From Eledone cirrhosa (Eukaryota), in the NCBI GenBank assembly GCA_964016885.1, contig OZ024740.1:89094001-89158000 (forward strand): 64,000 nucleotides of DNA, given 5' to 3'. A program made the translations under genes and the position numbers. Shown here piece after piece: positions 2,377 to 64,000 of the stretch. Every line of letters starts with the position of its first letter. Within the stretch, counting starts at the first letter, position 1. Under the pieces are notes generated by a model. It saw nothing but the letters and a program-made list of their open reading frames with translations, searched no databases and had not been told where the DNA came from.

Positions 2377-2747
<371 letters not shown>

Positions 2748-11610: not shown

Positions 11611-11614
<4 letters not shown>
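9438..11614 (-). mobile_element. 5'-truncated RTE-clade LINE
   Basis: RT ORFs 11009-11614 and 9696-10934; 3' hairpin plus (CAT)n tail near 9440; truncated at a TA tract. Confidence 0.9.
9696..11614 (-). pseudogene. RTE reverse transcriptase, frameshifted, with three C-terminal C2H2-like fingers
   Basis: Motifs NYRGISLLS, FVDLTKAFDTV, GVKQG, HADD, FVYLGS; fingers such as CQTCGRECKSAGGLKRHAKVH. Confidence 0.92.
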
Positions 11615-11664
<50 letters not shown>

Positions 11665-11699
11665 AGATTTGAATGGATACAGTTTAGTTGAAAGGAATT

Positions 11700-12675: not shown

Positions 12676-13110
12676 TTATGTAATATTCGGCTTGTAGTGG
12701 GAAAAAAGGGTTTTAGTTCTGTGACGGCAGAATAATGTTCGTTCAATTCTGTTATTCAGCAGTTTCTTCTTGTGTGTGATTATGTAATAAATCTCAAGAT
12801 TATACAATTTGCAGAAATTTTGGCTCCTGGAAAAGCTTTGGGTTTTAGCTAATTTGTCCCATTTTAGGGTAAACTTTTGATCGCTATCCCTGAGCGTCCA
12901 AGCTTTTTCTGCTAAAGTTGTTACATTTCTTTGGCTCTGGTGTTTTATTGAGTAAGAATACCTATACAATCGAGATTTAAACGATGTTGCCGTTGATCCC
13001 ACGTAATACCACTCGTTGCCTCCGGATTTAATGGTACACTTATAAATAATATTTTTTTCCAGGCAGTTATTGCCGAGGGGGCAGTTGTCAGGATAGGTGC
13101 AGTTACAGTT
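12676..13110 (-). pseudogene. PLE GIY-YIG endonuclease with Cys-rich linker
   Basis: IIY...YVG motif and conserved R; ORF 12676-13002 plus upstream in-frame sequence. Confidence 0.8.
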
Positions 13111-13329
13111 GTGTACGTTGGGTTTTCTCTGGAGTAGTATTGCGGACGAACTTGGGTGTGGTTTATTTATGTTCTGTAGTGTATTGTCTACTGTTTTTTT
13201 TTTGTGTTCTTTGTACTTAAGTTTTTAGTGTTTTCGTTTAACCTTCTAGTATTGATCTTTTTTATGTGTTGTTCAAGGTTTAACGCTGTAGAGTATGACA
13301 GTCTTTATATTACAACACAACGGAAAATA

Positions 13330-13809: not shown

Positions 13810-16800
13810 TTAATTGTAAGTTGTGATTTTGCTGTTCCACTCATGTTTTCTATTTAATTTTGGTTGTAATTCTTTTATGTTTATTGCCTCTGTGATTTGT
13901 CTAAACATTGCGTCTTTTCTGTGTGTAGATTCTATTTTTATTTCTATCTTCTCTAATTTACCCTTGTGTTCTATTTTAGCATATAGGTAGAGTACAGATG
14001 ATTCTTTACTATCTTGAAGGTCTCGCCAGTGTTCATGTATCCGTTCCCCTACACTACGAGCTGTCTCACCTATGTACACTATATTTTTGTCTGTACATTG
14101 TCCTTCAGTAGATCTTATGCTATACACTACATTTCTAGTTTTACAGTTAATATGGGGGCTTATTTTACAGGTTATACATTTCTTATCTATACATGAGGGT
14201 CTTTGAGAAGGGTATGTCTTGCTAATAAGTGATTTTACGGAGGTACCTGGTCTTTCTACTATCTTAATTTTGAGTTTATGTTTATTTAGGGCCCTCTAAA
14301 TGTGTAAGCTAATTCACCTCTAGGGGTTGTATCGATGAACATTACACTCTGGTATTTATTGCTATAATACCATGAGTTTATTCTATCAGCCTTGTTCCTA
14401 GTTCTTTCTATTCTATTCCAAAATTTGCTCCTATACAAGGGGCAGTACCCATTTATGTCATTATTTACCATTTTTTCCCAATTGGTTCTGGCTCCTCTAT
14501 ACACTCTGATTTTATCTCTCTGATTGTAGCCAGAGAACTGCATACGGTGGATGAAGTGTTTTATGTGTCTCTCTAGTTCTTCGGGGTTGCACATGCGGGA
14601 CACATTTCTCATCACCCGTACTAAATCCTCAATCAGTATGTTGATTTCGGTATGGTCCGAAACGGCCGAGTTTCGGTGGATCAGATGTTTGGAAGTCATG
14701 GGTTTGGCATAATGGGAATGGAGGATTTGTTTTTTGTTATTAATGGTATCTAACCAGAGCTCTGTGTCTGGTACAGGTAATCGATGGTTGGGGTGTTTAC
14801 TTGGGTAGTCTATAGTAACTCTAATGCTCTGGAGGATGGAGTTAGCTATTTGCTGGATGCTTTCCATTGTTTTTTTTTTCTAGTTCCTGACTGTTCTCTA
14901 GTGGGGGTGTCTTAACTACGATGTTTATATCATCAACGTAGCGGGAGTACATTATCAGGGTTAAGGGGTCTTCTAATTGTTCTTTAAGTTTAAGTTTAAG
15001 TCTACTGTCCCACCATACCATGAATAAGTTAGCTATGTCGCCTGCAATGCTAACACCAATGGCTGCTCCTTCCTCTTGGGCATATGCTTTTCCATTAAAT
15101 TTGAACATATGTTCCTTAAGGGTTAATTTTATGCTGGCCCCTACCGCATGTGCAATCATTTTATTCAGTTCATCGTGGTTTTCGGGTGTCCGTATGACTC
15201 TGGTCCACCCGTTCCGTCTATCTGTGTGGGTTTTCTTGGCCATTGAGGTAATGGTAGGTGGTCTGCCTCTTGCTGGTTTTGTAGGGCACAGGTTGCTAAG
15301 GTCATATGTGTCTAGGTAATTATTACTATCAGTAAGTTTAAGTAGGAGTCCCAGCTCATTGGTATCAATCCCACGGAACTCAACATTGCTCTCACTGATC
15401 ATTTCTACGCATTTCTCTCCACAGCAAAATCCACGTCAATAGATGGATACAGGGACACAACATCCATACTATCTATTATGCAGTTTGTTAGGTCCCTAGA
15501 TCGGTTACTCACGCCGATTCTGCCGAGGAAGTCCTCTGTGCTGTCACATACATCTGGGGACATTTCAATGATGGGGCGTATGATCAGGGAGAGGAAGTAG
15601 GACAGTCTGTAGTTACTAGCAATGTTAGCTCCACAGACTGGCCGTGTTGGTGGTCCCGCGACAGGGTCACTGCCCGTTTTATGGTCTTTTCGAAGCCCAT
15701 ACAACGCCGGCACGTCTTTGTTCCAGGCCTGGAAGTTGTTGGCAGTCCTTTTGATGGGCTGCATTATATTCGTCCACATCACCATATGGGCATTGAGGGC
15801 TTTTTCTCTATCCTCATGCTCCTGTGGTGTTACCTCTCTTGTGTTAGTGATGTGAGGTTGCATTGCCTGGATGTAGTTTGGCAGGCTGTCAACCGACATT
15901 CTGCCAGACTTGTCTGTTGGAAAGCATGCTATCTCTCCATTACGCGAGCGCTGCATGAGCTTACGCAAGCCATTTGCAGATTTTTCTCCCAGTTGCTGGG
16001 CCTCCATTCTATTATGCTTCTTGCTATACTGTTCTATACTATTTCTAAGTTCGGATCTAGCTATACTAAATTGTGCTTCTGTTTGTTCATCGACTTGCGA
16101 CGGCAATTGGGTGCGTTTGTTAAATGGTAGAGTCGTGGCGTGGACCCGTCGCAGGTCGAACGATTTATCGGAGGGATTATAAAACGTAGAGTTCCAGGCT
16201 GCTGCTTTATATGTACTAGTGCTATTGTTATTGTTAGTTGTGTTGTTTCTATTTCTATTTCCACCAACAGCCTCATGGTTGTTTCTATGTCTCTCATAAT
16301 TACTCCTGTCTCTTTCCACTGGCTCATTGTTGTTATCTACCCTATTTTGTGTGTCCGTGTGTTCGTCTTGGTTATTTTCTTTGTCCTTAGTCTCCCTTCT
16401 CCTTTTAATCCTATGGCTTTCCCTTATTTCTGTGATTTCTGTGCTACTGTCATTACTTGTTCTCTGTTTCTGTGTGTTTGTTAAGATTGCGGTGGTGCTG
16501 GGAGGCATTGAATGTGTGTGTGTTGTTGTTGTTGATGTATGCTGTTGTTGATGTGTGTTGTTGTTGTCTCCGTGTGTGTTATTATTGTTGTGTGTGTTGT
16601 TATTGTTGTTTGTGTCTGCGTGTCTGTTGTTGTTGTTTCTGGGTATGTTATTATTGTTGTTGTTGTTGGTGTGTGTGTTGTTGCTATTGTTGTTTGTGTC
16701 TGTGTGTCTGTTGTTGTTGGGATGTGTGTTGTATATGTGTGTGCGTATATTGTTGCTTTTGTTTTTGTTTTTGCTTTTGAGGCTCCAGCGTAGTTTTGTA

Positions 16801-17549
16801 AATGATTTTTCTATTTCTGACAGACAACTAATCATATTTACCTTCTTGAATGTCGCAAATCGCGGGGGCAGACATAATACAGATAACTCATTGTCATCTA
16901 TTATTGTTTTGCCGTATATATTTGTGTTGTTGTTGTTGTTGAACTCATCCGTTAATGAGGTGTCGGCCATATTTATACCGTCAATTTTGTCGGGATATCT
17001 ATTGGTATTCTCTATAGTATCCTGATTTAGCGTTATCTGCTTAAGCCACTTTAGTTTCTTGTTAAAGTGCTTATCACATTCTTGAGTAATGTACTGTTCT
17101 TCAGGACGTATAAGGCTTATAAATATTAGTTTCTCTCTCGGTGTGGTGATCCTAGCTATTTCTTGTATTAGGTTTCGCTTATGTTTTTCTTGATGACTTA
17201 ATTCTCTATAGATCTTCTTTTTTATGTTTAGAATTAGTGTTCGTTTTAGCCTATCTGCTTGTTTTTTGGTGAGTTGTAATCTTCTTACGTCGGTGTTGAT
17301 GGTGTTGGTGTAAACTCGGGACGAGGCACATTCTTTTATGAAGTGTAGTTGTCGAGATGTTATGGTTTTTCGTAGACAAAAGAACATGGTGGTTTTCAGT
17401 ATCTTGTTAGCCTGGCTAAGGCTTACGATATTTCGTTTCTGAATTTGTTTAGCAAGATTCTTTATCTGAAATCGTGTGTTGAAACCGATATTGTTATACT
17501 TTGGGAGGGTCATGTTGCCAATAAGAAACACACGCACCAGTGCTTTCAC
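13810..17549 (-). pseudogene. PLE polyprotein split by frameshifts (ORFs 15405-17549, 14842-15402, 14286-14867, 13810-14127)
   Basis: PTDKSGR, LYGLRKDHK, PPTRPVC, DVVSLYPSI, GAAIG, RYVDD, HYAKPM; GIY-YIG VYIGETARSVGERIHEH. Confidence 0.92.
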
Positions 17550-17639
17550 TTCAATTTATTATAATAAATTTATAAATTTATAAATTTATAAATTTCTGGT
17601 TGGTTGGTTGGTTCCACAACCAGATAGTTGTTTATATAT

Positions 17640-17684
17640 AGTCATAGTTATTTCGTCACACACTCTGTGACCTCTTCAGTGACT
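17640..17684 (-). ncRNA. Minimal hammerhead in PLE pLTR (also 13567-13609 on minus, damaged; 18510-18554 on plus)
   Basis: AGTCA / CTGAAGA / g-GTCAC-agagtgt-GTGAC / GAAA / taac / TA / TGACT. Confidence 0.85.
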
Positions 17685-18683
17685 GGGGATTCCTTTCTTT
17701 GTTTCTGTGCCTCTCCTTTGTTCTGTCCTATGCCATTTTGTTTCTGTGTGTGTGTTTTCTGCACAGTCTGCGCATGCGCCACATCCGGGTGTCTGTGTGT
17801 GTTTATGTTCATTTATTTATTTGTTTATGTACATGTTACTGGTTGGTTGTTTGTTCTATGTGTGTGTGTGTTTTCATTTTGTCCTTAATTGTAAGTTGTG
17901 ATGTTGCTGTTCCACTCATATTTTCTATTTAATTTTGGTTGTAATTCTTTTATGTTTATTGCCTTTGTAATTTGTCTAAACATTGCGTCTTTTCTGTGTG
18001 TAGATTCTATTTTTATTTCTATGTTCTCTAATTTACCCTTGTGTTCTATTTTAGCATGTTGGTAGTGTACAGATGATTCTTCACTATCTTGAAGGTCTCG
18101 CCAGTGTTCATTTATCCGTTCCCCTACACTACGAGCTGTCTCAACTATGTACACTATATTTTTGTCTCTACATTGTCCTTCAGTACATCTTATGCTATAC
18201 ACAGAAAAGACGCAATGTTTAGACAAATTACAGAGGCAATAAACATAAAAGAATTACAACCAAAATTAAATAGAAATTATGAGTGGAACAGCAACATCAA
18301 AACTTATAATTAAGGACAAAATGAAAACACACACACACATAGAACAAACAACCAACCAGTAACATGTAAATAAACAAATAAATGAACATAAACACACACA
18401 GACAACCGGATGTGGCGCATGCGCAGACTGTGCACACAACACACACACAGAAACAAAATGGCGTAGGACAGAACAAAGGAGAGGCACAGAAACAAAGAAA
18501 GGAATTCCCAGTCACTGAAGAGGTCACAGAGTGTGTGACGAAAGGACTATGACTATATATAAACAACTATCTGGTTGTGGAACCAACCAACCAATCATAA
18601 ATTTATAAATTTATTATAATAAATTGAACTGAAAGCAACTGGTGCGTGTGTTTCTTATTGGCAACATGACCCTCCCAAAGTAT

Positions 18684-18734
<51 letters not shown>

Positions 18735-19024
18735 ATATTAACAAATTGAAACTATATTTATGAAACCATATTTATTTCATTATACATATTACAAGGGCTA
18801 CCAAGGCAGATTATGGTGCGCTTTCATTAGATAAAATATAATATAGATTAGTTCTATAAATACATATTGACATACTCTGAAAAATGTAAGCTTCACGGTT
18901 GGAGTCTCCCGGATAGTGGAGATATTAGATTTATTGTTTGTTTATTATGCAAATTAGTGTCGGAAAGGTATAAATAACAGTATATTTAAATTACGCCGTT
19001 AGCTTATATATATATATATATATA

Positions 19025-19509
19025 GTAATAATAATACATTTGAAGACTAAAATCCAAAGAGAGCTCGATACCGATAAATATATATCAAATATATAAGAAC
19101 CCTGGAGCCAATATTTATTAAAATAACATATTAAATTTTAAGCAAAGAATCGCTGCTTTCACCATTAACAGGATCTTCTGAAACTAAAAAAATCAATCTG
19201 TGTACGCAGAAGTAAATATTTCGAAAAACGTTGCAACCGATGGAAAACAGAAATACGATACTTTGCCTCGTGAAGACGTTCCTTGGCAATGAACTGAACA
19301 AAGCAAAGATAATACATAATTATGTGGAGCGGTGAGAACAATTACACGCAACCACAAAACCAAGTTTATGGTGCAAATGAAGTCGTAGACTAATATTCTA
19401 TTTAGGAAACCGAATGATTTTCGGCTTCAGAGTTAAGAATAATGTAAATAAGTTAGAACGAAAATGACAGAGGTTATTGAAATAAACAATAATTAAATAT
19501 ATACATACA

Positions 19510-19570
<61 letters not shown>

Positions 19571-19790
19571 TAAAATAACAGATTAAAGTTTAAGCAAAGA
19601 ATCGCTGCTTTCACCCTTAACGGGATCTTCTAAAGACCCCGTTAAGGGTGAAAGCATCGATTCTTTGCTTAAACTTTAATCTGTTATTTTAATAAATATT
19701 TGCTCTACGGTTCTTATATATTTGATATATATTTTCCTTATCGAGCCCTCTTTGGATTTTAGTCTTCAATTTTATTATTATTACTATATA
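19025..19790. mobile_element. Nested inverted pLTR remnants of the CAGAAGA-HHR family
   Basis: ~19025-19180 is the reverse complement of ~19630-19790; inner hairpin ~19565-19700; homologous to 8015-8160. Confidence 0.75.
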
Positions 19791-19799
19791 TCTATATCT

Positions 19800-20676
<877 letters not shown>

Positions 20677-29597: not shown

Positions 29598-32500
29598 CTA
29601 CAGGATGGTATACAGAGAAGGCCCATTTACACGAGCCATTCTCGCCACTATCACCCACCTTTCATAAAACTGCCTGTGGCCAAGCACCTCTCTCTCCATT
29701 CTTATCCTTCTTTCGAAGTGATATCGGAAGAAGTAGACCAGACTCTGGCCAGAGAGGAAGTTGCCTGACCTCAGACCTTTCAATCGTGTCCACCAAACAA
29801 CCTCTTTCAACATGGCTATTACGCACAGAAAAACCGCTTTTGCTTCCTTTGTGAAGAGGGGAGGCGGCTTGATTGTCATCACGGACTCGACGGTCAATTG
29901 AATCGGCGCCACCCGCGACAGCAGTCGTTCGGCGTAGCCCCACATATCAGCCACGCCCGGACATTGCCCCAATGCGTGCGCAACGGTTTCTTCGTGACGC
30001 ACGCATCTAGGGCAAATCCTTTTTGAGGGATCCCTGCCCGGGCGCCCGTGTCTGTAGAGCCTCTCTCGAACGGGTAGAGCCCCTCGGTAGCACTGCCAGG
30101 CCAGTGACTTCTGGAAGTTGTCCATTGGTCCTGGGCCGAAAGTCCTACCGAACAGGCTGGCGAGTTCGTCTTCCTCCATGTCTAGCGACTCTCCAATGGT
30201 GTCATCGCCCCTGCTAGCCACCAGCCCTCTATAGAATGATGAGGTGGATTCTCCACCGATGGCCTGGCCCGCTTGCCAGAGAGCCCTGAGCGCCTGAGCA
30301 CACTCAGTGTGCCAGTCTCCCAGTTTTCCGGATCTTTGCTTGACCCAGGACTGTAGCTCGGTGAGCGAGACGAGTCTCGGAAAGGCTCGTTTCACGAACG
30401 GAGCCCACACCGGTTGACCAGTGAGGAAAACCTGTAGGTGCCGTAGCCTTAATGCGTGCCTACGCATCATCAACCACGGCATCCCCAGCCCTCCTTTCGA
30501 AGGTTGTTGGCAGCAGATGGATCTTCTCACTATAGGAGGGCGCTTCTTCCAAAGAAATTGGAAGAGCATGTGTTCCATGGTGGTGAGTGTTTCCTTAGGG
30601 CAAGGCACGACAGTCAGGCGGTAGTAAGTGACGGACGCTATGTAAATGTTCGCCACCTCCGCCCGGCCTTTGAGGGACAGCTTACATTTGGCCCATTTCT
30701 GAGTTAGTGCAAACACCTTGTTCGTAACCTAGTTCCAGTTCTTTTCCACCTGGAGGTCCGGTCCAAACCAGACCCCAAGCAACTTTACCGGGCCCTCCGT
30801 CCAGTGTCCGACGACACCGTCGGGAGGCATCGGTCTGCCTCTCCACGTTCCGAGTTGCAGCCCGATGGATTTTTCCCGGTTCAGTTTCGCTCCTGACAAC
30901 CTTTCGTAATCCTCCAGTAAGGTACCGATCGCCTCGATCTCCGAGTCGGTCGATACCATTACTGTTACGTCATCGGCGTAGGCCGACACCGCTCGGCTCA
31001 ATCCTGGTTCCAGGGGGATACCCTGCAACAACTCCAACTTCCTCAGTAAAGGCTCGAGAGTCAATACGTACAGAAGGGAGGAGAGAGGGCACCCCTGTCG
31101 AATGGATCGTGTGATTTCGAACGGCTTCGAAAGGTAGCCGTTCACCTTGATCCTATAACAGATGTGGTTGCGATGTAAGGCAGTGATCCAGCCTCTGATA
31201 ACAGGACCGAACCCAGCCGCCGCTAGCACCGCATCCAGGTAACCATGGTCGACCCTATCGAAGGCCTTAGACTGATCCAAGTTGATCAGGGCCCCACCGA
31301 AGCCGGGTTTGTTGCTAACCCTCTCTATGATGTATCGCATGAGGTGGAGGTTATCGTGAATGGACCTGGATGGGATAGCACATGTCTGCGCATCTCCCAC
31401 CAGGCCACCCACGACAAGCGCCAACCTCTTTGCTAACACCTTGGCCAAAATCTTTAACTCTGTGTTTAGCAGGGTTATGGGCGGAAAATTATTTATACTA
31501 TCTCCCTTGTTCTCGTCCTTCCTCACCAGCGTGACTACGCCCTTGGCTACAGAACAAGGAATTCTCCCGTTCTGCTGCCAATTGCAGTAGACCGCTTCGA
31601 GGAGTTCGGAGAAGAAGACCGGCATTGCTAAATAAAGTTCGTAAGGTATACCATCGAGACCTGGACATTTGCGTCTGCTGCATTGGCTCAGCGCATCTCC
31701 GATCTCATCAGCCGAGATTGGTCTCTCGCAGGACTCTGCCTCTTCACCCGAGAGACGCGGCAGGCCGTCGAGGTATGGACCGAAATCCACGCCCCCGCCC
31801 GGACCCTCGCCTCCCCCGAACAATCGGGAAAAGTGCCTTTGAAAGGCCTCGCACATCTGCTTAGGCTCCCGGATCACCCGTCCATCTTCATCTTGCAACG
31901 ACCGGATGGTGGATCGATTTCCACTCTTAGCTTCTGTCACGCGGGCCCAGCCAACGGCCTTGGCCCCCTCATTACCTAGAGCACGTATTTTACTTCGAAT
32001 GACGCAGCCTTCGTGCTTTGCATCGAAAAACTGGTTCAAGGCCGTCCTCGATGCCAGCACTCTGGCCACATCTTCGCTCTTGATTGCCTCTTCTAATTTA
32101 CCTGTTAATTCTTTCTCGTTTCTATTCCTATCGGCAGCTAACATCTTGCTATAACTTATTGATTCTGTTTTAATCTCTCTTTTGAGAGATGCCCACCATC
32201 GGTTGTTGACGATTGCACCCGTCAACCTCTCCTTAACTAATCTGCTAATCCGGTTTCTGTAAGTCTCTTTTTCCGGTAAAGACAAATTAAGTTTCCAGTA
32301 ACCGGGACCCTGTTGATGTGTTTTCTCGAGATTGACTACGCAGGTCACTAATTTGTGATCCGTGTAGCCAACCGTGCGCATTTCTGGACAGCTTAATATG
32401 TCCCTATCCTTACTTCTAACTAAGAATCTATCTAAGTACGATCTAGATTGACCACTGTGGTTTCTCCAAGTCCAGGTAGGCACAGTTGGAAAATCTAGTC

Positions 32501-33035
32501 GATATCTATCGACCAAGTTAAAACGGTCGAGTAACTCCTTGAGGCTGTTACACCCCCCTCTATTAGGACATGCTCCTGCATAGTCCCAACGTGCATCTAG
32601 GATGTCATTCCAATCCTCCGCTAGAAGCAGGGAACGCGACGTTCCCAGAAAAGTCTCTAAACGCTGGAAGAAGTCGGGCCGTTCAGCTCCGAAAGGGGAG
32701 TAGACGGCGACCAGTCTTAAGGCCGCACCTTCACTACTACCAACGTCTAGCACCAACAAACGAACCTCCGGGTCCGAGTGCACAGCCTGTACGGCAAGAC
32801 CCAGGTGTTTTTGCAGCAGTACGACAACCCCACCCCCACCTCCAGGTTGACAGAGAGATGCATGCACCTCAAAGTCATCGAAGGTAGGGGCCAGCTGCCG
32901 CACGACGCTGATCCGAGTCCCACAGATAATCATTACATTTATACCACATGACCTGAGGTCATTTAGAAGCTTTGCTTGCTTCCAAGTTGAGCCCAGGCCA
33001 CGTGAATTTAAACATCCTACTCTTAACACATCCAT
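29598..33035 (-). pseudogene. ORF2: APE endonuclease, RT and zinc finger, with one in-frame stop at 30729
   Basis: NSRGL, SYLDRFLV, TDHKLV, PGLDG, DQSKAFDRV, IRQGCPLS, YADD, CPRC...ETVAHALGQC. Confidence 0.95.
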
Positions 33036-35055
33036 GTGGGCTGCAGAGCCAAAGGAGAGTGTAGAGACCTACCTTTCCGCTTCCCGGGGTTCGGGTCGCA
33101 CGACTTCCATGGGTCGGGGGTGTTGGGTGAAGGGGTGTCTTGTGGTGGTGTGGGGTCGTCAGCGTGTGGTGGGGTTGGGGTGTTTGGAGTTGTGTTGGGG
33201 AGGGGAAGGGGAGGGGAAAGCTTTTTAGTAGGACGCGGTTTATGGGTTTGACAGAGGGTGGTCCTACGTCCTCCTTAAAATCCTTTTTTAGTTTTTGGTA
33301 GAGGTTCATTGGGATCTTTATTAATTTTAAATGTGGGTAGTTTTCTGAAGAAACAAAGTTTACTCCTTCGGTTTGTACCGAAGGATTATTGTTTATGAGT
33401 TCATTTAACTTATTATTGTTTCTGTTGATGTAAGTATAGTGTAATGTCTTTTTTTCGGATGGTGTGAGTGTTTCGAAGAGGGGAGGGGAAGGTTTGGTTT
33501 TGTTTGTTGCTGGAGGGGTGTTTTCTGTTTTGTTGGATTGGGTTGCGATTTGGGTGGGGGTTGTTTGGCCTTGTGTGTTTTGCACATGTTTTCTTTTTTT
33601 CCTTTTAATCTGTCTGAAGGACTCCGTTTCTTCCTCCGAATTCGTTGGGTTATCTTCAGTGTTGGAGGGAAGAGGTATGTTTGCTGGTAATGTTTCCGTG
33701 TTGGTTTTCTTTGTGGGGGAGATGGATGTCACTATGTTAGACTGTGTTGTGTGTTGTGTCTGCGGTGGTTGTGTTGTTTTATTGAGTGAGGGGTTGGGTG
33801 GGCCTGTATTTTGTTTTGGGGTAATGTGTTGTGACTGTTTGTGTTGTGGTGGTGGTGTAGTTTTACTGAGGGACGAGTTGGGTGGGACTGAGTTTTGTTG
33901 TTTGTTTATCTGTTGTGGTGGTGGAGCTGGTGTTGGTAGCAGGGTTTTATTTTTGTTGAGTTGGGGACAAGCAGCCTTCAGGTGTCCTCTGCCTGCACAG
34001 ATATGACAGGACGGCCTTCTCCCCCCCCCCCACGCTAATGTTTATATACCCGTGGCCCTCTAATAGGATTCTGTCGGGTATTTGGGCGATGCGTTCAGGC
34101 TTCATTTGCACTACCAGCTCTATTCCTATTCCACTGAACGCATTGCCTGTGGTTTTCCCAATGGAAATCACGTTGTCATTCACTGGATCGATGAAGCCAG
34201 CTATGAGCCAGCAGTAGTCCACATCTGGCATCATTGCATTCAGCCATATGCGTTGAGTTCTTTTACCCATATAAGATCGATAAAAGGTAAAATTTTTCGA
34301 ACGAATCGGTGACAAAGCACATTTTTTTGCCGCCGATTCGTTCTTCATGATAATTGCTAGGCTTCCATACAGTCTGTCTTTTCTTATGAAAGTGGTTTCA
34401 TTAAGTACTTCTGTGAGTACTGTTTTGATATCTGCTTGAGAAGGCTGTTCAGGTTTTTTTGAAGTGTTGTTAATGGTGCGGAACACGACCGTTCGACTTT
34501 CAATGTCTTTGGTGAGTTCTTGAGGCATTTTTACCGATAAAATACCATTCTCTCCTTCACTTATGTATTGTTTGGCGTCTGTGATTCTTCGTGCCACATC
34601 TGAAATATTTTCGGCTACATATGTCAAAGATTTCTTTGTTGTTTGTGCAAATGAAATCTTGACTCTGTCGTCTGCTTTGCTTTCTGTTATGGTGTTATTT
34701 TCAAATGTTATTTTTGTGTTTGTTGTGTCTTTGTTTGTGGTGTTAGTATTGTCATGCAATTTTTCAAATTTTTTTTTTCGTTGTTGGAATCCATGTCCAG
34801 ATTTGTGTTTTCATCATTTATTTTCTCCGCAGATTCGTCTGTTTTTATTTTAATTTTTCCTTCCTTCTCTATGACGTTAGTTGGGAAGGAAAGGGGGACT
34901 AAAGCGTGCGAGCTTACAACTCTTACCGCTGTCCCCCCACCACTATTTTCGTTCTCTTCGTTTAACATTTCTGTCAGCCGATTGAACTTTTTTGCCACAA
35001 AATTTTTAAAAATAGGTTTTTCACCTCTAGGAGGGGTAAAGATGAGCTGACCCAC
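32959..35055 (-). pseudogene. ORF1 (frameshifted) with CCHC zinc knuckle
   Basis: ORFs 34708-35055, 33947-34759 and 32959-33732; after the C-run at ~34025 the alternate frame reads CHICAGRGHLKAAC. Confidence 0.8.
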
Positions 35056-43139: not shown

Positions 43140-43825
43140 ATTTCATTTAGCTTTGTTGGTTTACCACTGGATAGAACTGGTCATTCCGTATGGTCAACCT
43201 CGATGTAATATTAGGGAGAGCACTCGACGTAATGCAACTTCGTTTGTGTTGTTGGTGGTGCGAGTACGGGGTTAATTCTTATAAAATAACAGGAGGCTGG
43301 ACTGGTGTAATTCCTTAAAGGTTTATTATACTATGAACATTTCAATGACCGCGTTCAATATGAATCCGGTGGCATCATCAGGTATTCAACATTTAACAAA
43401 GCAATATAATCCATGGGGCTGAAAAGGCAGAGAGATAAGAAGGCGGCCACACATTTAGCAGTTTCTAGTTCGGTCGGCCGTCTTCAATATTCACCTAATC
43501 GATTTCAGGAATCATTTCTCCATCTGAATGAAATTACAATTATCTTCAACTTATTTGCATATTTCCTTAGAAAGAAATGCCGGTCTTGTATAAAAGAAAT
43601 AGAACTAGTGCAGAAAGTGTGAAGGCGGCCGATCGAACTAGAAACTGGTAAATGTGTGGCCGCCTTCTTGTCTCTCTGCTTTTTCAGCCCCATGGATTAT
43701 ATTGCTTTGTTAAATTTCGAATACCTGATGATGTCACCGGATACATACTGATGAACCCGGTCATTGAAATGTTCATAGTATAATAAACCTTTAAGGAATT
43801 ACACCAGTCCAGCCTCCTGTTATTT

Positions 43826-43828
<3 letters not shown>
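43140..43828. mobile_element. Fold-back pLTR pair with HHRs and a captured local spacer
   Basis: Arms 43281-43486 and 43620-43828; TA tracts lie outside both ends. Confidence 0.85.
43721..43781 (+). ncRNA. Hammerhead ribozyme (mirror 43328-43385 on minus)
   Basis: ATAC / CTGATGA / tgtcACCGG...CCGGTcat / GAAA / tgttca / TA / GTAT then AATAAA. Confidence 0.8.
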
Positions 43829-46725: not shown

Positions 46726-46733
46726 TATATATA

Positions 46734-47617
46734 CGAGGTGTGTCAGAATATTCTAGGACTGATGTCACAAAAGATTTATTTCAAAGCCAAACTTCACACA
46801 ACGAGTTTTCTCCTTCGAAGTAATCCCCATGGAGTATGTAACTGTAATCTTAGCTCTCTGCACGATCAAACTTTTTTCTTCATAATTTTATATACATATC
46901 CTCTGTTTCAGGTCGTCAAGCAATGAGCACAGAGCAACGAACAAAGTTGAAGTTTCTGGCATGGTTGGGGAAAACTCCATCAGAAGCACTGGTATTTCTG
47001 CAGCAAGTGTATGGAGATGAGACGATGTCACGCTCACGTATTTTTGAGTGGTGCAAGATGACCCCAGGAGCGGAAGGCACTCAACAACCAGGACTGAGGT
47101 AAACGTTGAGCGCGTCAGGCAGATCGTGCGTAGCGATCGTCGGCCGACTGTTCGACTGATGGAAAATGAGCTGGGCATGAATCGGGACAGCGTCTGGAAG
47201 ATTCTCACTGAAGATTTGGACATGCGGAAAGTCTGCGGGAAGATGGTGCCAACACTGCTAAACGAGGACCAGAAGGGTCGACGCATGCAAGTGTGCCAGG
47301 CCATCCTCAAGCGTCTTGAAACCAAACCAGACTTGCTAGGGACAGTCATCACCAGTGATGAGTCATGGATCTCCGAGTACGACCCGGAGAGGACCCGCTT
47401 TGAAGACGTGGACGACATCAAATAGGCCGTCACGACGGAACTGCGGAGGATCCCGGAAGAATCCTTCCGGGGATGCATGCAAGAGTGGCAGAAAAGGATA
47501 GAAAAGTGCATTAGACTCCAGCGGGATTACTTTGAAGGAGAAAACTCTTAGTGTGAAGTTTGGGTTTGAAATAAATCTTTTGTGACATCAGTCCTGGAAC
47601 TTTTCTGACACACCTCG
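46734..47617 (+). mobile_element. Internally deleted mariner (Tc1/mariner) transposon
   Basis: ~65-bp imperfect TIRs CGAGGTGTGTCAGAA...; TA duplication; transposase remnant DDPRSGR, KMVPTLL, VITSDESWISEYDPE jumping to the C-terminus. Confidence 0.93.
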
Positions 47618-47668
47618 TATATTGGAAAATGTGTGAGATCCTTGGTACAGTTAGGTATATTTGAAAAG

Positions 47669-48032
47669 AAGGAAAATAATGACTTCACTTGTAGTTCTAA
47701 ATAATTTGATTTCATTTTATAATAATATAATATTATGCGTTGGTAGATCTAGTAAGTTCTTTGTTAACTTCGGTGGGAAGAATTTTAAAGAATCCTGGTT
47801 AACTTTGCTGGTGAACTTTCTCGCACTCGGTGGCGATTGTCAAATTGAGATCTCAGTTTGACAATCGCCACCGATGAATGCGAGAAAGTTCTCCAAGAAA
47901 GTTAACCAGGAATCTTTAAAATTCTTCCCACGGACGTTAACAAAGAACTTACTAGATCTACCAACTCATAATATTATAATATTATAAAATTAAATCAAAT
48001 TATTTAGAACTACAAGTGAAGTCATTCTTTTC

Positions 48033-48035
<3 letters not shown>
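47669..48035. repeat. ~365-bp palindrome with no spacer, ending in (TA)n
   Basis: Centre GAGA|TCTC at 47850/47851; arms are diverged. Confidence 0.92.
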
Positions 48036-53306: not shown

Positions 53307-53448
53307 GTAATATAATAATAATTATATTATTTATATTTATATATACACTATATACACCTACAAAAAGAAAGCAATTTATTACTACCTTATTACCGATAAG
53401 AAAAATACCTCAATGTAAATACATCAGATGTTTTACAGACCAGGAATG

Positions 53449-53791
53449 TAAATTACACAATAATCAAAACTATGTTCACATTATTTTATTGCTGACAATC
53501 GTTTCTTCCAAACTTTCGTTTGGAATTCTCGGAGCACTAGCAAAGTTTGGACATATAATTAACTTTCTATTCAACTGAAGATATATAGATACATGGATAT
53601 TAATGTTGTCAACAATCATATAGATACATGGATATTAATGCTGTCAAGATTAATATCCACGTATCTATATGATTGTTCAGTTGAATAGGAAGTTAATTAT
53701 AAGTCCAAACGTTGCTAGTGCTCCGAAAGTTTGGAAGAAACGATTGTCAGCAATAAAATCATTTGAACATAGTTTTGATTATTGTGTAATT

Positions 53792-53793
<2 letters not shown>
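53449..53793. mobile_element. Fold-back palindrome with HHR-like motif (53490-53536, minus)
   Basis: TGCT / CCGAGAA (degenerate core) / TTCCAAAC-gaaa-GTTTGGAA / GAAAC-gatt-GTC / AGCA; the right arm has a deletion in stem II. Confidence 0.7.
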
Positions 53794-53871
<78 letters not shown>

Positions 53872-54420: not shown

Positions 54421-54455
<35 letters not shown>

Positions 54456-54457
<2 letters not shown>

Positions 54458-57097
54458 TAATTTAATATATCAGCTAACATAGGCGCACAGATGCACGTCC
54501 ATGCCAGCAAATACACAGGTTATGTCATAATACCTAGGTGGTTCAATGCAGGAGGGTGCAGAACAATAATATAAAAGACGTAAGATAAGAAAATATTTTT
54601 TAAAAAAAATTTTTTAAACATTTTTTTTACTTACTTAAATTTTCACTCCAACTAATTAGTTTCTGCAATGGGATAAAGACAGTTACGTAATCCAACTGTC
54701 GAGAATTCATTGCGTCATCAGGGAGTCTATTCTCAGCTGAGTCTCCAGGCAATGCGCGGACACTGGCGGCTCATATAAAAATAATAATAATTCGGTAGAA
54801 AGAACAGCTTGCGAGGACTGGATTCTATGTACTGAAATTCTCACTGCTTCTAGTCAAATGGCCGATTCTAAAGAATCAATCACGTGACACAGAGGCTAGT
54901 TAGAAGGAATGGGATGGTAAGATGACTGACGCCTACTAACACCCCAAAAAAAATTTAGAAGTGGTTTTGGCAGGTTTGCTCGACAAATCAGTGATTTGGA
55001 GATAAATATAGATAATTTAATATATCAGCTAACATAGGCGCACAGATGCACGTCCATGCCAGCAAATACACAGGTTATGTCATAATACCTAGGTGGTTCA
55101 ATGCAGGAGGGTGCAGAACAATAATATAAAAGACGTAAGATAAGAAAATATTTTTTAAACAAATTTTTAAAAAATTTTTTTTTACTTACTTAAATTTTCA
55201 CTCCAACTAATTAGTTTCTGCAATGGGATAAAGACAGTTACGTAATCCAACTGTCGAGAATTCATTGCGTCATCAGGGAGTCTATTCTCAGCTGAGTCTC
55301 CAGGCAATGCGCGGACACTGGCGGCTCATATAAAAATAATAATAATTCGGTAGAAAGAACAGCTTGCGAGGACTGGATTCTATGTACTGAAATTCTCACT
55401 GCTTCTAGTCAAATGGCCGATTCTAAAGAATCAATCACGTGACACAGAGGCTAGTTAGAAGGAATGGGATGGTAAGATGACTGACGCCTACTAACACCCC
55501 AAAAAAAATTTAGAAGTGGTTTTGGCAGGTTTGCTCGACAAATCAGTGATTTGGAGATAAATATAGATAATTTAATATATCAGCTAACATAGGCGCACAG
55601 ATGCACGTCCATGCCAGCAAATACACAGGTTATGTCATAATACCTAGGTGGTTCAATGCAGGAGGGTGCAGAACAATAATATAAAAGACGTAAGATAAGA
55701 AAATATTTTTAAAAAAAAACAGTGAGAATTTCAGTACATAGAATCCAGTCCTCGCAAGCTGTTCTTTCTACCGAATTATTATTATTTTTATATGAGCCGC
55801 CAGTGTCCGCGCATTGCCTGGAGACTCAGCTGAGAATAGACTCCCTGATGACGCAATGAATTCTCGACAGTTGGATTACGTAACTGTCTTTATCCCATTG
55901 CAGAAACTAATTAGTTGGAGTGAAAATTTAAGTAAGTAAAAAAAATTTTTTTAAAATCTTTTTTAAAAAATATTTTCTTATCTTACGTCTTTTATATTAT
56001 TGTTCTGCACCCTCCTGCATTGAACCACCTAGGTATTATGACATAACCTGTGTATTTGCTGGCATGGACGTGCATCTGTGCGCCTATGTTAGCTGATATA
56101 TTAAATTATCTATATTTATCTCCAAATCACTGATTTGTCGAGCAAACCTGCCAAAACCACTTCTAAATTTTTTTTGGGGTGTTAGTAGGCGTCAGTCATC
56201 TTACCATCCCATTCCTTCTAACTAGCCTCTGTGTCACGTGATTGATTCTTTAGAATCGGCCATTTGACTAGAAGCAGTGAGAATGTCAGTACATAGAATC
56301 CAGTCCTCGCAAGCTGTTCTTTCTACCGAATTATTATTATTTTTATATGAGCCGCCAGTGTCCGCGCATTGCCTGGAGACTCAGCTGAGAATAGACTCCC
56401 TGATGACGCAATGAATTCTCGACAGTTGGATTACGTAACTGTCTTTATCCCATTGCAGAAACTAATTAGTTGGAGTGAAAATTTAAGTAAGTAAAAAAAA
56501 TTTTTTAAAAATTTTTGTTAAAAAATATTTTCTTATCTTACGTCTTTTATATTATTGTTCTGCACCCTCCTGCATTGAACCACCTAGGTATTATGACATA
56601 ACCTGTGTATTTGCTGGCATGGACGTGCATCTGTGCGCCTATGTTAGCTGATATATTAAATTATCTATATTTATCTCCAAATCACTGATTTGTCGAGCAA
56701 ACCTGCCAAAACCACTTCTAAATTTTTTTTGGGGTGTTAGTAGGCGTCAGTCATCTTACCATCCCATTCCTTCTAACTAGCCTCTGTGTCACGTGATTGA
56801 TTCTTTAGAATCGGCCATTTGACTAGAAGCAGTGAGAATTTCAGTACATAGAATCCAGTCCTCGCAAGCTGTTCTTTCTACCGAATTATTATTATTTTTA
56901 TATGAGCCGCCAGTGTCCGCGCATTGCCTGGAGACTCAGCTGAGAATAGACTCCCTGATGACGCAATGAATTCTCGACAGTTGGATTACGTAACTGTCTT
57001 TATCCCATTGCAGAAACTAATTAGTTGGAGTGAAAATTTAAGTAAGTAAAAAAAATTTTAAAAAAATTTTTTTTTAAAAATATTTTCTTATCTTACG

Positions 57098-57103
<6 letters not shown>
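54456..57103. repeat. Tandem array of a 555-bp unit that switches orientation at ~55720; both ends in (TA)n
   Basis: Unit starts at 54456, 55011 and 55566; inverted phase at 55721, 56276 and 56831. Confidence 0.97.
55840..55921 (+). ncRNA. Type I hammerhead in each 555-bp unit (+: 55840, 56395, 56950; -: 54645-54726, 55200-55281)
   Basis: ACTCC / CTGATGA / GCAATG...CATTGC (inner GACAGTT/AACTGTC hairpin) / GAAAC-TAATTA-GTT / GGAGT. Confidence 0.87.
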
Positions 57104-57139
<36 letters not shown>

Positions 57140-57142
<3 letters not shown>

Positions 57143-57524
57143 AGAATATTTTCGAAACAGCGAGCGTGTTTGAAATTATTATAAATGTAAGCTATCGCCG
57201 TATTTTGACTAAAGAAATTAAAGAAATTATTTAGCCTGATAGTAGGGTTAAGAACCCTCGGAGAAATGGAAAAAAGACGAGTATTGACGTACATGGGAGT
57301 CGAACCCACATCTTTGGTTATCCAGACCACTGTGCTACCATTTAGACCAACACATCATGATGTGTTCGTGTAAACAGTAGCACAGTGGTCTGGATAACCA
57401 AAGATGTACGTCAATACTCATCTTTTTCCATTTCTCCGAGGTTTCTTAACTCCACTATCAGGCTAAATAATTTCTTTAATTTCTTTAGTCAAAATACGGT
57501 GATAGCTTACATTTATAATAATTT
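57140..57524. mobile_element. Fold-back element with a tRNA-like head, between (TA)n tracts
   Basis: Inverted arms spanning 57173-57524 centred at CATCA|TGATG (~57357). Confidence 0.8.
57286..57356 (-). ncRNA. tRNA-like sequence (pseudo-tRNA or SINE head)
   Basis: Acceptor stem GATGTGT/GTACGTC, A-box TGGTCTAAATGG, anticodon arm TGGT-ctggata-ACCA, T-arm TGGG-TTCGACT-CCCA. Confidence 0.7.
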
Positions 57525-58357
57525 ATATATATATATATATAAATTAAATAAATGAATGTACTGAATGCTATAGTTATTCACTGAATGCACAAATCATACT
57601 CCACTGTAGTGATTCCTAATCACCAGTTATCAATATTCCTTACAAAAGATACCATAAATATATCTTTTTAGATAAAAACCCTCCAACATTCTTTTGTTGT
57701 TTCTATCATTTCATCTATAATTCATAGGATACCAGATAACTTGTTTATCTTTTCAATTATGTTAATGGAATGCATTGTATTACTTAAGTAAACATTTCAT
57801 TACAGCTGTCAAATCTCAGAGTTGATACATTTCAGGAATTTTTAAACGCTACAATGACAAGCCACCAGACTGAGAATTGGAAAGAAGACTATTTGTAGCT
57901 TGCAATTATTTATGATACCAACCACCTAACCTGAAAATTCTGCTGTTCTATATGAAGAAACCATTTTATAATGTATGTTTCAGTAATGTGATTTCACGGG
58001 TAGTGGCTACTTAGTTGCGGTTGGTATGTACACAGTATTCTATTGCCAAGATGACATATGGATAAATACATTCAAATCATAACCATCATGACATTTTGTT
58101 TAATATGATCTATACTGACCAATGTGTCCCATGACATTTAAAATACTATTTCTCGAGGTGTCATTCTCTGGCATTGAGTTCGTAGCAATATGAATTCTTG
58201 CATTAAGCATTAAGTACTGTATTTAGTTGTGTTCTTGAAGTATTCTATATATGTTAGTGGCTTCTTTGCCAATCCTGTAGTATTGCTACTTGTACAGTAA
58301 AGCAAGCATGTGTACATGCGGTGTATGTATGGAATGAAAGAAATTGATATATATATA

Positions 58358-58405
58358 TCTTAATACGCTCTGTTTATACACACACACTCACACACGCACA
58401 CACGC

Positions 58406-58439
<34 letters not shown>

Positions 58440-58487
58440 GTGTGTGTGCGTGTGTGAGTGTGTGTGTATAAACAGAGCGTATTAAGA
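58358..58487. repeat. Small inverted duplication centred on (TA)n
   Basis: TCTTAATACGCTCTGTTTATACAC...GTGTATAAACAGAGCGTATTAAGA. Confidence 0.9.
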
Positions 58488-61594: not shown

Positions 61595-62126
61595 AAGGAT
61601 ACACGTGGATCATTAATTCGCTAAGCGAAATAGAGAGCCCCTTCTAGCATTAAACAAGGACACGTGCTATTAACGATCATGACGAAGAACACATACAAAT
61701 TATAATCCATTCTAAATTTAATATGACATATCTTCTTCTTCGCTCACATATTTCCGAGAGGGTTATGAAGGCATAAATCTGAAACAATCAATGCAGCGGG
61801 CCCTGTCAGAAGCAACCGTATCAAAAGTGACCCATTTATATCAGAGCTACGCATTCTATCCAATAACGTTACTGTAGAGACCCTTCGGGGGAACGCCATT
61901 TCCACCTCTTGTATTGGCGATCGTATTCTTTCTGTCATTATATGTTATATAAAGGCGGTGGATTGGCAGTAACGGTAGAGCGTCACCATGCTTCGTGACA
62001 TAGAGTTACGGCCCTTTACGTTATGAGTTCAAATCCCGCCGACGTTAGCTTTGCCTTTCATTCTTACTGGGTCGATAAAATAAAGTACCAGTTACGCACT
62101 GGAGTCGATTTAATTGACAAATTAAG

Positions 62127-62166
<40 letters not shown>

Positions 62167-62344
62167 CATGCATCTATATATATGTCTGTGTGTGTTATTA
62201 ACACAGATTAAAAGTTTAACCAACCAATTACTACTTTCAACCCAAAGCGCCATCATCTCAAACTTATGTATATATAACCCGGATTGGATTCTCTCACAAT
62301 GTTGGTCTTTGTATTTACTGTTACTGCTATATATCTAATCTCTG

Positions 62345-62412
<68 letters not shown>

Positions 62413-62590
62413 CAGAGATTAGATATATAGCAGTAACAGTAAATACAAAGACCAACATTGTGAGAGAATCCAATCCGGGCTATATATACATAAGTTTGAG
62501 ATGATGGCGCTTTGGGTTGAAAGTAGTAATTGGTTGGTTAAACTTTTAATCTGTGTTAATAACACACACAGACATATATATAGATGCATG

Positions 62591-62633
<43 letters not shown>

Positions 62634-63164
62634 TTAATTTGTCAATTAAATCGACTCCAGTGCGTAACTGGTACTTTATTTTATCGACCCAGTAAGAATG
62701 AAAGGCAAAGCTAACGTCGGCGGGATTTGAACTCAGAACGTAAAGGGACGTAACTCTATGTCGCGAAGCATGGTGACGCTCAACCGTTACTGCCAATCCA
62801 CCGCCTTTATATAACATATAATGACAGAAAGAATACGATCGCCAATACAAGAGGTGGAAATGGCGTTCCCCCGAAGGGTCTCTACAGTAACGTTATTGGA
62901 TAGAATGCGTAGCTCTGATATAAATGGGTCACTTTTGATACGGTTGCTTCTGACAGGGCCTGCTGCATTGATTGTTTCAGATTTATGCCTTCATAACCCT
63001 CTCGGAAATATTTGAGCGAAGAAGAAGATATGTCATATTAAATTTAGAATGGATTATAATTTGCAGGTGTTCTTCGTCATGATCGTTAATAGCACGTGTC
63101 CTTGTTTAATGCTAGAAGGGGCTCTCTATTTCGCTTAGCAAATTAATGATCCCCGTGTATCCTT
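61595..63164. repeat. 1.57-kb palindrome centred on (TA)n at ~62383
   Basis: ~770-bp arms, nearly identical with scattered substitutions; they contain a SINE and an RTE scrap. Confidence 0.95.
61953..62120 (+). mobile_element. SINE copy (mirror ~62640-62806 on minus)
   Basis: TGGCAGTAACGG, GAGTTCAAATCC, GCCTTTCATTC...GATAAAATAAAGTACCAG. Confidence 0.82.
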
Positions 63165-64000
63165 TCTTACAAATCTCATATGACGCCCTGCAGTATCCCC
63201 TTCTTTTTCCGTACGGAGAAGACGGGTACTATTTCGGCATTCCTCACCACAAACCAAACGAGCCCACTGCTGCGACATCTAAAACTGTTTCATGTATGGC
63301 TTTCTACTCATACCGCTTCATGACAAAGCATAATGATTTTAGCCCCCTGCACAGCTCACGGGAACTGTTTCACCAGTTTGCAGTTGACATGGCTGCAAAG
63401 ATGGAGTCCGAGAGACTGTGCTTCATCAAATTGAATCAGAAGCAGCTGCGCTCAGACGCCTACATACATTTTCGTGACGGCATCAGGAATGACACTGACG
63501 CCCGAAACATCGGCAAGATGTGCATCTCCCCTCAACCTATACAGGGGGCACACGGTACATGCACGAGCGAACACAAGACGCTATGACTTACGTTCGGCAT
63601 TATGGGCGACCCGATTTATTCATCACTTTTACATGTAACCCAAAGTGGCTTGAGGTAATGCGAGAACTTCTCCCAGGGCAGCAGTACTGCCATCGCCCTG
63701 ATATTATTGCAAGGGTTTTCAGGCAGAAGTTCGCTAAGCTCATTGATTTAATAAAAAAAGGGCAGGTTTTGGGGCCTGTTAAGTGCCACATGTATACTGT
63801 TGAGTGGCAGAAAAGAGGGTTGCCACACGCGCACATTTTGCTTTGGTTGGTCAACATAATAGACCCGACAGTTCTTGATGACATCACCGCAGCAGAAATC
63901 CCGGACCCAACTGTTGACCGGCAGCTGTACGACATTGTGAAGGCACACATGATGCACGGTCCGTGCGGTCCCGGTTTGCAAAAGTTCTGCTCATGCCACA
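63165..64000 (+). mobile_element. Helitron Rep (RepHel) fragment, frameshifted, continuing beyond the window
   Basis: YDALQYPLLFPYGEDGY, LFHQFAVD, LNQKQLR, GRPDLFITFTCNPKW, VEWQKRGLPHAHILLWL, MMHGPCG. Confidence 0.93.

What the first reader, a model, noticed from the sequence alone, without database searches (positions are those of the whole stretch)
57140..57524. tRNA-headed element using PLE-style insertion, with a tRNA in place of the ribozyme
Seen: same TA-flanked outward fold-back geometry with unequal arms, but the centre is the 5' end of a 71-nt tRNA-like cloverleaf, followed by the TACTCG...CGAG stem; no HHR found. Inference: a SINE mobilised by Penelope-like rather than LINE machinery, where Pol III initiation or RNase P/Z processing supplies the RNA end that an HHR supplies in other families. 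A T6 run soon after the tRNA would stop Pol III, which complicates a simple SINE model.
Basis: partly seen in the sequence, partly recalled or inferred. Interest (0 to 1): 0.75.

Follow-up and report, generated by a model that had tools for sequence, protein, structure and literature searches.

The report
Ribozyme-free tRNA parasite of Penelope elements
This is one of thousands of copies of a 271-base repeat that carries a tRNA-like module but no detectable self-cleaving ribozyme and sits in TA microsatellites as two outward-facing arms, so it is likely a SINE-type parasite copied by Penelope-like retroelements instead of by LINEs.

Summary
The hairpin is one insertion of a young family: a 271-272-nt circularly permuted unit, at least 2,490 arms, median 97% alike. 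Of 129 sampled loci, 77 are two outward arms; 172 of 198 arm ends abut (TA)n. No two-armed copy has two long ends: one arm carries an extra ~38-nt tail, a published hallmark of Penelope-like elements (PLEs) also shown by this genome's PLEs. There is no poly(A) or ordinary target duplication and no hammerhead. Copy 5' ends mark two sharp stops: four bases upstream of the tRNA, which fits a Pol III start and not an RNase P cut, and just 3' of T-loop A58, which fits an m1A58 or elbow block. So the tRNA most likely acts as promoter, not as a nuclease substitute. How unit-spanning templates arise is open. No partner PLE and no RNA run were found. Closest known: Schistosoma Sm-alpha, which keeps a hammerhead. 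Verdict: new variant of a known kind.

The parts
57140..57357 (-). Long arm of the insertion, unit positions 1-218
57285..57356 (-). tRNA-like module (72 nt, short variable loop, GGA at the anticodon position; unlikely to be a working tRNA-Ser)
   Evidence: Rfam 38.3 bits; ARAGORN
57338..57349 (-). A-box-like stretch (D arm) of the inferred Pol III promoter
   Evidence: sequence; box consensus from own knowledge
57296..57306 (-). B-box-like stretch (T loop); A58 is window 57300, and most family copies stop just 3' of it
   Evidence: sequence
57266..57281 (-). Trailer with the T6 run (57270-57275); predicted to pair with the upstream leader in longer copies
57140..57173 (-). One-sided tail present on the long arm only
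57358..57524 (+). Short inverted arm, unit positions 1-185, T arm deleted (17 nt, near 57403/57404)
57103..57139 (.). Left (TA)n target, shared with the end of the neighbouring hammerhead repeat
57524..57541 (.). Right (TA)n target
54447..57107 (.). Context and control, not part of the element: two-armed array of a 555-nt repeat with a type I hammerhead

Best explanation
It is a non-coding 271-nt repeat with an internal tRNA-like module and no hammerhead, likely transcribed by RNA polymerase III and likely inserted into (TA)n by the reverse transcriptase and endonuclease of a Penelope-like element. Inferred cycle: Pol III starts at the G four bases upstream of the tRNA. A fraction of transcripts read through the T5. 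The PLE enzyme primes cDNA from both sides of a cut in (TA)n at two AT-rich internal sites about 38 nt apart (unit ~180 and ~220) on the same template. Each cDNA usually stops just 3' of A58 (m1A58 or the folded elbow) or at the RNA 5' end. The two cDNA ends, or one end and the target, then join by microhomology. Unit-spanning copies most likely come from rare dimeric sources whose transcript starts in one unit and ends at the T5 of the next; that terminal redundancy would let the enzyme switch template and keep rolling. Shown: family, geometry, end positions, shared variants. Inferred: transcription, the enzyme, the modification, the template switch.
For: Geometry: 77 of 129 loci two-armed outward, 44 single, 8 complex. 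Two-armed 3' ends: 58 long+short, 0 long+long, 6 short+short (5 look like long arms whose alignment broke off), 13 with one irregular end; 13.1 long+long expected of 64, P=4e-7. (TA)4 within 24 nt of 172 of 198 ends versus 708 of 7,090 background windows. 0 of 121 loci with a non-microsatellite flanking duplication; 0 of 198 ends with A8. PMC8557442 (passages) names partial tandems, an inverted 5'-truncated copy, a 30-40-bp one-sided tail and (TA)n bias as PLE traits not seen with LINE TPRT. An autonomous GIY-YIG PLE here has two TA-joined ends 68 nt apart, one on each arm in L220 and L223; the hammerhead repeat has ends 118 nt apart. Same template: the two arms share 44 derived variants versus 7.4+-2.4 in permutations; successive passes in 55 over-length arms share 57 versus 10.9+-3.8. 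Start site: of 32 genome-wide TA-joined tRNA 5' ends, 10 keep 4 leader bases, 2 keep 3, 8 keep 2, 12 keep 0-1, none keeps 5-7 (by eye). T-loop stop: 81 of 134 arms reaching 57-72 end there versus 24 of 205 in flanking bins; of 28 TA-joined ends, 23 lie at 59-61, 3 at 57-58, 0 at 53-56, 2 run to 52 (by eye). My hammerhead scan found 6 of 6 controls and no credible match in the unit. Cassandra is a precedent for Pol III start in one repeat and stop in the next (PMC10886601 passage).
Against: No autonomous partner: no significant match of the unit to 70 PLE loci, and a tempting likeness to the L215 family end scored 26 against a shuffle mean of 27.9. The T5 right after the tRNA resembles the T runs behind well-scoring tRNA genes of this genome and should stop most Pol III transcripts. 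A58 is not significantly more substituted than other tRNA A positions (5 of 113 versus 45 of 1,771, P=0.22), so there is no misincorporation support for m1A58. Three inversion junctions extend past -4 (L115 to -6; L006 and L027 to -9), several reach 54-55, and 12 of 32 ends fit an RNase P cut equally well. About half of the tRNA 5' halves in the position-ordered sample continue into the leader, which a simple Pol III monomer cannot give. Samples need an exact motif, and the main one comes from one contig; L041/L142 look like one insertion counted twice.
Confidence: 0.68

Rival explanations
1. One reading: host tRNA-processing enzymes (RNase P and/or Z) cut multimeric transcripts at each tRNA module, and the monomers are ligated into circles that the PLE enzyme rolls around, so the tRNA replaces the hammerhead as the cutter.
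For: Unit junctions are seamless, and successive passes share variants. The T-arm stop recurs on the second pass (7 of 14 arms, by eye). Leader and trailer are complementary and would hold the two ends together. 12 of 32 ends fit +1.
Against: 20 of 32 ends keep leader bases that RNase P would remove, with a sharp edge at -4. No pile-up of 5' ends at the RNase Z site (position 74). Multi-unit arms are far rarer than in the hammerhead family: 3 of 90 versus 14 of 47 loci, P=2e-5. A paired leader is a poor RNase P substrate (own knowledge).
Confidence: 0.15
2. An ordinary tRNA SINE mobilised by a microsatellite-targeting LINE (R4/Dong-like or other), with inversions from twin priming.
For: Intact A- and B-box-like motifs and a defined start. 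No PLE sharing sequence was found. Dong-R4 LINEs are listed as active in one cephalopod genome (PMC13282606 table), though the organism here was not determined.
Against: Both arms carry the same sequence, and only one has the tail. The 3' ends are internal to a permuted unit. No A tail or target duplication. PLEs and hammerhead repeats of the same genome share the architecture. LINE 3' ends were not compared directly.
Confidence: 0.09
3. A retrozyme whose ribozyme is decayed or of an unrecognised type, with the tRNA as promoter only, as in Sm-alpha.
For: A CUGAUGA-like heptamer with two G-to-A changes (unit ~175-181), a hairpin and a GAAA with a palindromic stem III lie near the 3' ends (sequence). 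PMC8557442 reports partial hammerhead cores in Naiads.
Against: No stem I and no valid core with any 3-8 base pair. No ribozyme family in Rfam at E<=10, though Rfam also missed the real hammerheads in the window. In the hammerhead families examined the TA junctions lie downstream of the ribozyme, not inside it.
Confidence: 0.08

Closest known systems
Sm-alpha / Sj-alpha of Schistosoma (PMC6765202 and PMC2770079, passages)
   Same: tRNA-derived, apparently Pol III-transcribed, high copy number, tandem and dispersed; needs dimers to propagate.
   Different: Sm-alpha carries an active hammerhead; none was found here. The passages seen do not describe two-armed TA insertions or PLE mobilisation for it.
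Non-LTR retrozymes, non-autonomous PLE derivatives (bioRxiv 10.64898/2026.07.22.740005, part 1 of 5 and passages)
   Same: Short non-coding permuted tandem unit, PLE-type spread; one such family lies next door in the window.
   Different: Defined by a type I hammerhead in each unit. That text has 0 occurrences of 'tRNA'. Copies here are mostly sub-unit, with sharp stops at tRNA landmarks.
Naiad/Chlamys PLEs and non-autonomous MRC1 (PMC8557442, passages and supplement search)
   Same: No canonical hammerhead, (TA)n targets, inverted 5'-truncated copy, 30-40-bp one-sided tail, head-to-tail copies.
   Different: No tRNA module reported ('tRNA' 0 times in the supplement). The non-autonomous ones generally share 3' sequence with a partner; four short motifs of this unit were not found in the supplement (line breaks can hide matches).
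Cassandra, Helenus and Ajax (TRIMp3; PMC10886601, passages)
   Same: Small-RNA-derived Pol III promoter in a non-autonomous element that does not use LINE machinery.
   Different: They have LTRs, PBS and PPT and depend on LTR retrotransposons (Ajax makes 5-bp duplications); no such features were seen here.
Canonical tRNA SINEs, including cephalopod OK/OR1/OR2 (PMC4758252 passage; the 1994 paper itself not read)
   Same: tRNA-derived head with A and B boxes, about 270 nt.
   Different: No LINE-like tail or target duplication; permuted unit; two-armed copies. OR2 is described as a CORE SINE. Identity with a catalogued SINE could not be tested without Repbase, Dfam or SINEBase.

Membership tests
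Non-autonomous PLE-mobilised element | Inverted 5'-truncated copy adjoining the 5' end | tested here: met
   77 of 129 loci
Non-autonomous PLE-mobilised element | 30-40-bp tail at one end only | tested here: met
   ends at 177-184 and 217-222; 58 long+short, 0 long+long
Non-autonomous PLE-mobilised element | Partial tandems / head-to-tail copies | tested here: met
   55 arms longer than one unit; arrays L023, L019
Non-autonomous PLE-mobilised element | Microsatellite target bias | tested here: met
   172 of 198 ends versus 10% background
Non-autonomous PLE-mobilised element | 3' sequence shared with an autonomous PLE | tested here: inconclusive
   none among 70 PLE loci out of tens of thousands of candidates; no Naiad of this genome was sampled
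Non-autonomous PLE-mobilised element | Mobilisation in trans by PLE protein | not testable with these tools
   needs a cell or in-vitro assay
Non-LTR retrozyme / Sm-alpha type | Type I hammerhead in each unit | tested here: not met
   own scan: no credible match in the unit, 6 of 6 controls found; Rfam none
Non-LTR retrozyme / Sm-alpha type | Circular or self-cleaved monomer RNA | not testable with these tools
   no RNA holder listed
tRNA SINE (SINE2) | tRNA-derived internal Pol III promoter | tested here: met
   Rfam/ARAGORN; 5' edge at -4; activity itself untested
tRNA SINE (SINE2) | A-rich or simple-repeat 3' tail with target-site duplication | tested here: not met
   0 of 198 A8 tails, 0 of 121 non-microsatellite duplications; duplications inside (TA)n cannot be seen
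tRNA SINE (SINE2) | 3' end shared with a LINE | not tested
   LINE 3' ends of the genome were not collected
Functional tRNA gene | Canonical isotype features (long variable arm for Ser, purine 37) | tested here: not met
   short variable loop, T at 37, 38-42 bits versus 60-75 for the genome's best tRNA hits

The most novel reading that the evidence does not exclude
A third kind of small-RNA-promoter parasite beside SINEs (LINE-dependent) and TRIMp3 (LTR-dependent): a tRNA/Pol III element that rides the Penelope machinery with no ribozyme. Its thousands of copies would record both its transcription start (G-4) and an m1A58 modification of its RNA as reverse-transcription stops, and would show that one RNA is primed twice, 38 nt apart, to make the PLE inverted-arm-plus-tail structure.
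Probability: 0.5. Interest if true: 0.78.

Novelty: new variant of a known kind. Interest (0 to 1): 0.64.

Why it matters
PLE integration is poorly understood: PMC8557442 calls the origin of the tandem/inverted structures, the tail and the role of the hammerhead undefined. A 271-nt non-coding, ribozyme-free substrate with thousands of young copies is a minimal test case. It argues that a hammerhead is not needed in cis for PLE-type spread, gives base-level priming and stop sites, and shows that both arms come from one source template. It also suggests that some repeats filed as unclassified tRNA SINEs in invertebrate genomes may be PLE parasites, which changes how they are annotated and dated.

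Tried and rejected
Partner search: GIY-YIG family search (10,596 candidates, 150 scored, 30 loci plus 20 longer stretches) and a second PLE endonuclease (20 loci) gave no match to the unit. The L215-end likeness was rejected by shuffles. The 7.2-kb array on C2 is a larger tandem carrying one insertion, with no PLE ORF in the 10 kb translated. Parent tRNA not identified: best global score 42 of 72 among 13 genomic tRNA hits. A second-pass stop at 81-91 suggested did not repeat in the larger sample. m1A58 misincorporation test was negative. A>G excess in the flanking stem (22 of 1,372 versus 52 of 7,514, P=0.002, after dropping position 265 as a likely subfamily variant) is post hoc and given little weight. 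Whole-unit folding is only mildly better than shuffles (z -0.6 for the arm; -2.1 to -2.3 for the circle). No RNA holder listed; three contig runs of one sample show recurrent joints at the T arm but may be the assembly's own source. Ten literature searches listed no paper describing a tRNA-bearing, hammerhead-free PLE parasite; the library lacks most subscription papers and Repbase Reports. Three look-ups of earlier findings were empty.

Full report
Observation. The window lies in a 3.0-Gb genome (G000:C1:89094001-89158000); the organism was not determined. A fold-back is centred at 57357/57358. The left arm reads 218 nt on the minus strand to (TA)n at 57139. The right arm covers positions 1-185 of the same sequence, lacks 17 nt spanning the T arm, and ends in (TA)n at 57524. 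Rfam finds a tRNA at 57285-57356 minus, 38.3 bits; ARAGORN calls it Ser(GGA), but it has a short variable loop and T37. The centre is one base upstream of G+1.

Family. A DNA search gave 2,181 candidates (40 scored, 75 matches). Exact 20-22-mers occur 2,490 times (body), 1,566 times (tail) and 167 times (just past the long end), with 0 reversed-control hits each. These are lower bounds. Median identity to the family majority is 97.4% over 192 loci selected by exact motifs or top scores. Arrays show a 271-272-nt unit in which 54 further bases precede the tRNA. The end of that leader is complementary to the trailer that holds the T run, so the acceptor stem is predicted to extend by about 16 bp (z -2.2).

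Insertion geometry. I mapped 129 loci on contig C1: 87 distinct loci from the first 100 matches and 42 more from the first 100. 77 are two outward arms, 44 single arms, 8 complex. 3' ends pile up at 177-184 and 217-222. Among two-armed copies 58 are long+short, none long+long (13.1 expected of 64, P=4e-7), 6 short+short (5 look like long arms whose alignment broke off) and 13 have one irregular end. (TA)4 lies within 24 nt of 172 of 198 ends against 708 of 7,090 background windows. No locus of 121 has a non-microsatellite flanking duplication and no end of 198 has an A8 run. PMC8557442 (passages) lists these traits for PLEs. In this genome an autonomous GIY-YIG PLE has two TA-joined ends 68 nt apart, and the neighbouring 555-nt hammerhead repeat has ends at +81 and about +199 from its cut, both present in 7 of 12 mapped loci. 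The two arms of an insertion share 44 derived variants against 7.4+-2.4 in 1,000 permutations, and successive passes in 55 over-length arms share 57 against 10.9+-3.8. So one source template is copied more than once; gene conversion within hairpins is not excluded.

Ribozyme. Rfam found none in three tandem loci at E<=10, but it also missed real hammerheads in the window. My own type I scan, allowing any 3-8 base pair, recovered 6 of 6 controls and found nothing in either strand of the unit, apart from one weak match in flanking DNA of L023. In the hammerhead family fold-back centres are scattered and not at the cut, and multi-unit arms are commoner: 14 of 47 loci versus 3 of 90 (P=2e-5).

5' ends. 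Of arms reaching positions 57-72, 81 of 134 end there, against 24 of 205 in flanking bins. Of arms reaching -5..+8, 18 of 41 end there, against 7 of 70. Genome-wide TA-joined ends sharpen both (counted by eye). At the tRNA start, 10 of 32 keep four leader bases, 2 keep three, 8 keep two, 12 keep none or one, and none keeps five to seven although the pattern allowed it. At the T loop, 23 of 28 begin at 59-61, 3 at 57-58, none at 53-56 although T54 and T55 could join TA as easily as T60, and 2 run to 52. The first edge is a purine after a pyrimidine upstream of the mature tRNA end, as expected of a Pol III start and not of an RNase P cut. The second is where m1A58 is known to block reverse transcriptases (own knowledge), though the folded elbow could do the same. 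Against: A58 shows no excess substitution (5 of 113 versus 45 of 1,771, P=0.22); L115, L006 and L027 extend to -6 or -9 at inversion junctions; some junctions reach 54-55. The T-arm stop recurs on the second pass (7 of 14), so it belongs to each tRNA module. Inversion centres favour the palindromic 4-mers at 63, 66 and 68, and several carry short templated fold-back inserts.

Mechanism. Most likely: Pol III transcription from G-4, partial read-through of T5, double priming by a PLE enzyme at two AT-rich internal sites, stops at A58 or at the RNA end, and microhomology joining. In the position-ordered sample about half of the tRNA 5' halves (19 of 41 scored as through, and a few more by eye) continue into the leader. 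That needs a dimeric source, a circle or a template switch. I favour a terminally redundant Pol III transcript running from one unit to the T5 of the next, by analogy with Cassandra (PMC10886601 passage), over RNase P-made circles; this step is the least supported. No partner PLE was found among 70 PLE loci, a likeness to one family failed a shuffle test, and no Naiad of this genome was sampled. No RNA run was listed.

Known systems. Sm-alpha is tRNA-derived, apparently Pol III-transcribed and tandem, but has a hammerhead (PMC6765202, PMC2770079 passages). Non-LTR retrozymes are PLE derivatives defined by a hammerhead (bioRxiv 10.64898/2026.07.22.740005, part 1 of 5 and passages; its supplements are closed). 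Naiad/Chlamys elements and MRC1 lack canonical hammerheads but have no reported tRNA module (PMC8557442 passages and supplement search). Helenus, Ajax and Cassandra pair Pol III promoters with LTR machinery. I also saw passages of PMC4758252, PMC13282606 and PMC12859917. Ten searches listed no description of this combination, but repeat databases and the 1994 cephalopod SINE paper were not seen, so the family may already be catalogued as a plain SINE.

Verdict. It works like a retrozyme-type PLE parasite. It is not a retrozyme (no hammerhead) and not a canonical SINE (no tail or target duplication). New variant of a known kind; interest 0.64.

Noticed in passing
window 54447-57107: Two-armed array of a 555-nt repeat with a minimal type I hammerhead whose stem II holds a long insert; 145 exact motif hits genome-wide, often multi-unit, 118-nt one-sided tail. 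Rfam misses it.
   Followed up: partly
window 13810-18691: Broken Penelope-like element (RT and C-terminal GIY-YIG, weak Pfam hits) with an inverted pLTR carrying hammerheads; its TA-joined ends fall in the first codons of the ORF.
   Followed up: partly
window 12679-13224 (-): Endonuclease end of a very young PLE family: 57,561 candidates, 94-98% identical hits, many 785-aa open frames; a candidate enzyme donor despite no shared sequence.
   Followed up: partly
L215, L216, L223, L226 (pLTR): PLE family whose hammerhead has a U3-A8 core pair in place of C3-G8, and a 68-nt one-sided tail.
   Followed up: partly
L287, L289-L297: A second dispersed repeat carries a well-folded tRNA (53-71 bits, variable anticodon) about 310 nt inside a fixed hairpin-shaped 5' end after TA; not PLE-like, possibly a DNA transposon or Helitron-type element (label recalled).
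   Followed up: partly
G000:C2:314.53-314.62 Mb (L331, L332): A ~7.2-kb tandem repeat carries one two-armed insertion of this family in each unit (9 motif hits).
   Followed up: partly
window 2462-2623, 19005-19804, 43281-43828, 46729-48035, 53446-53796, 58358-58487, 61595-63164: Further fold-back insertions; those at 2462 and 43281 contain hammerhead motifs, the others were not classified.
   Followed up: no
window 29598-34810, 9696-11683, 47048-47425, 63116-63586: Reading frames that look like an L1/Tx1-type LINE, an RTE-type LINE, a mariner transposase piece and a Helitron piece (labels recalled, not searched).
   Followed up: no
unit positions 257-268 and 73-90: A>G changes are 2.3-fold commoner in the predicted flanking stem than elsewhere, with no matching T>C excess; could reflect A-to-I editing of the template (post hoc).
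   Followed up: partly
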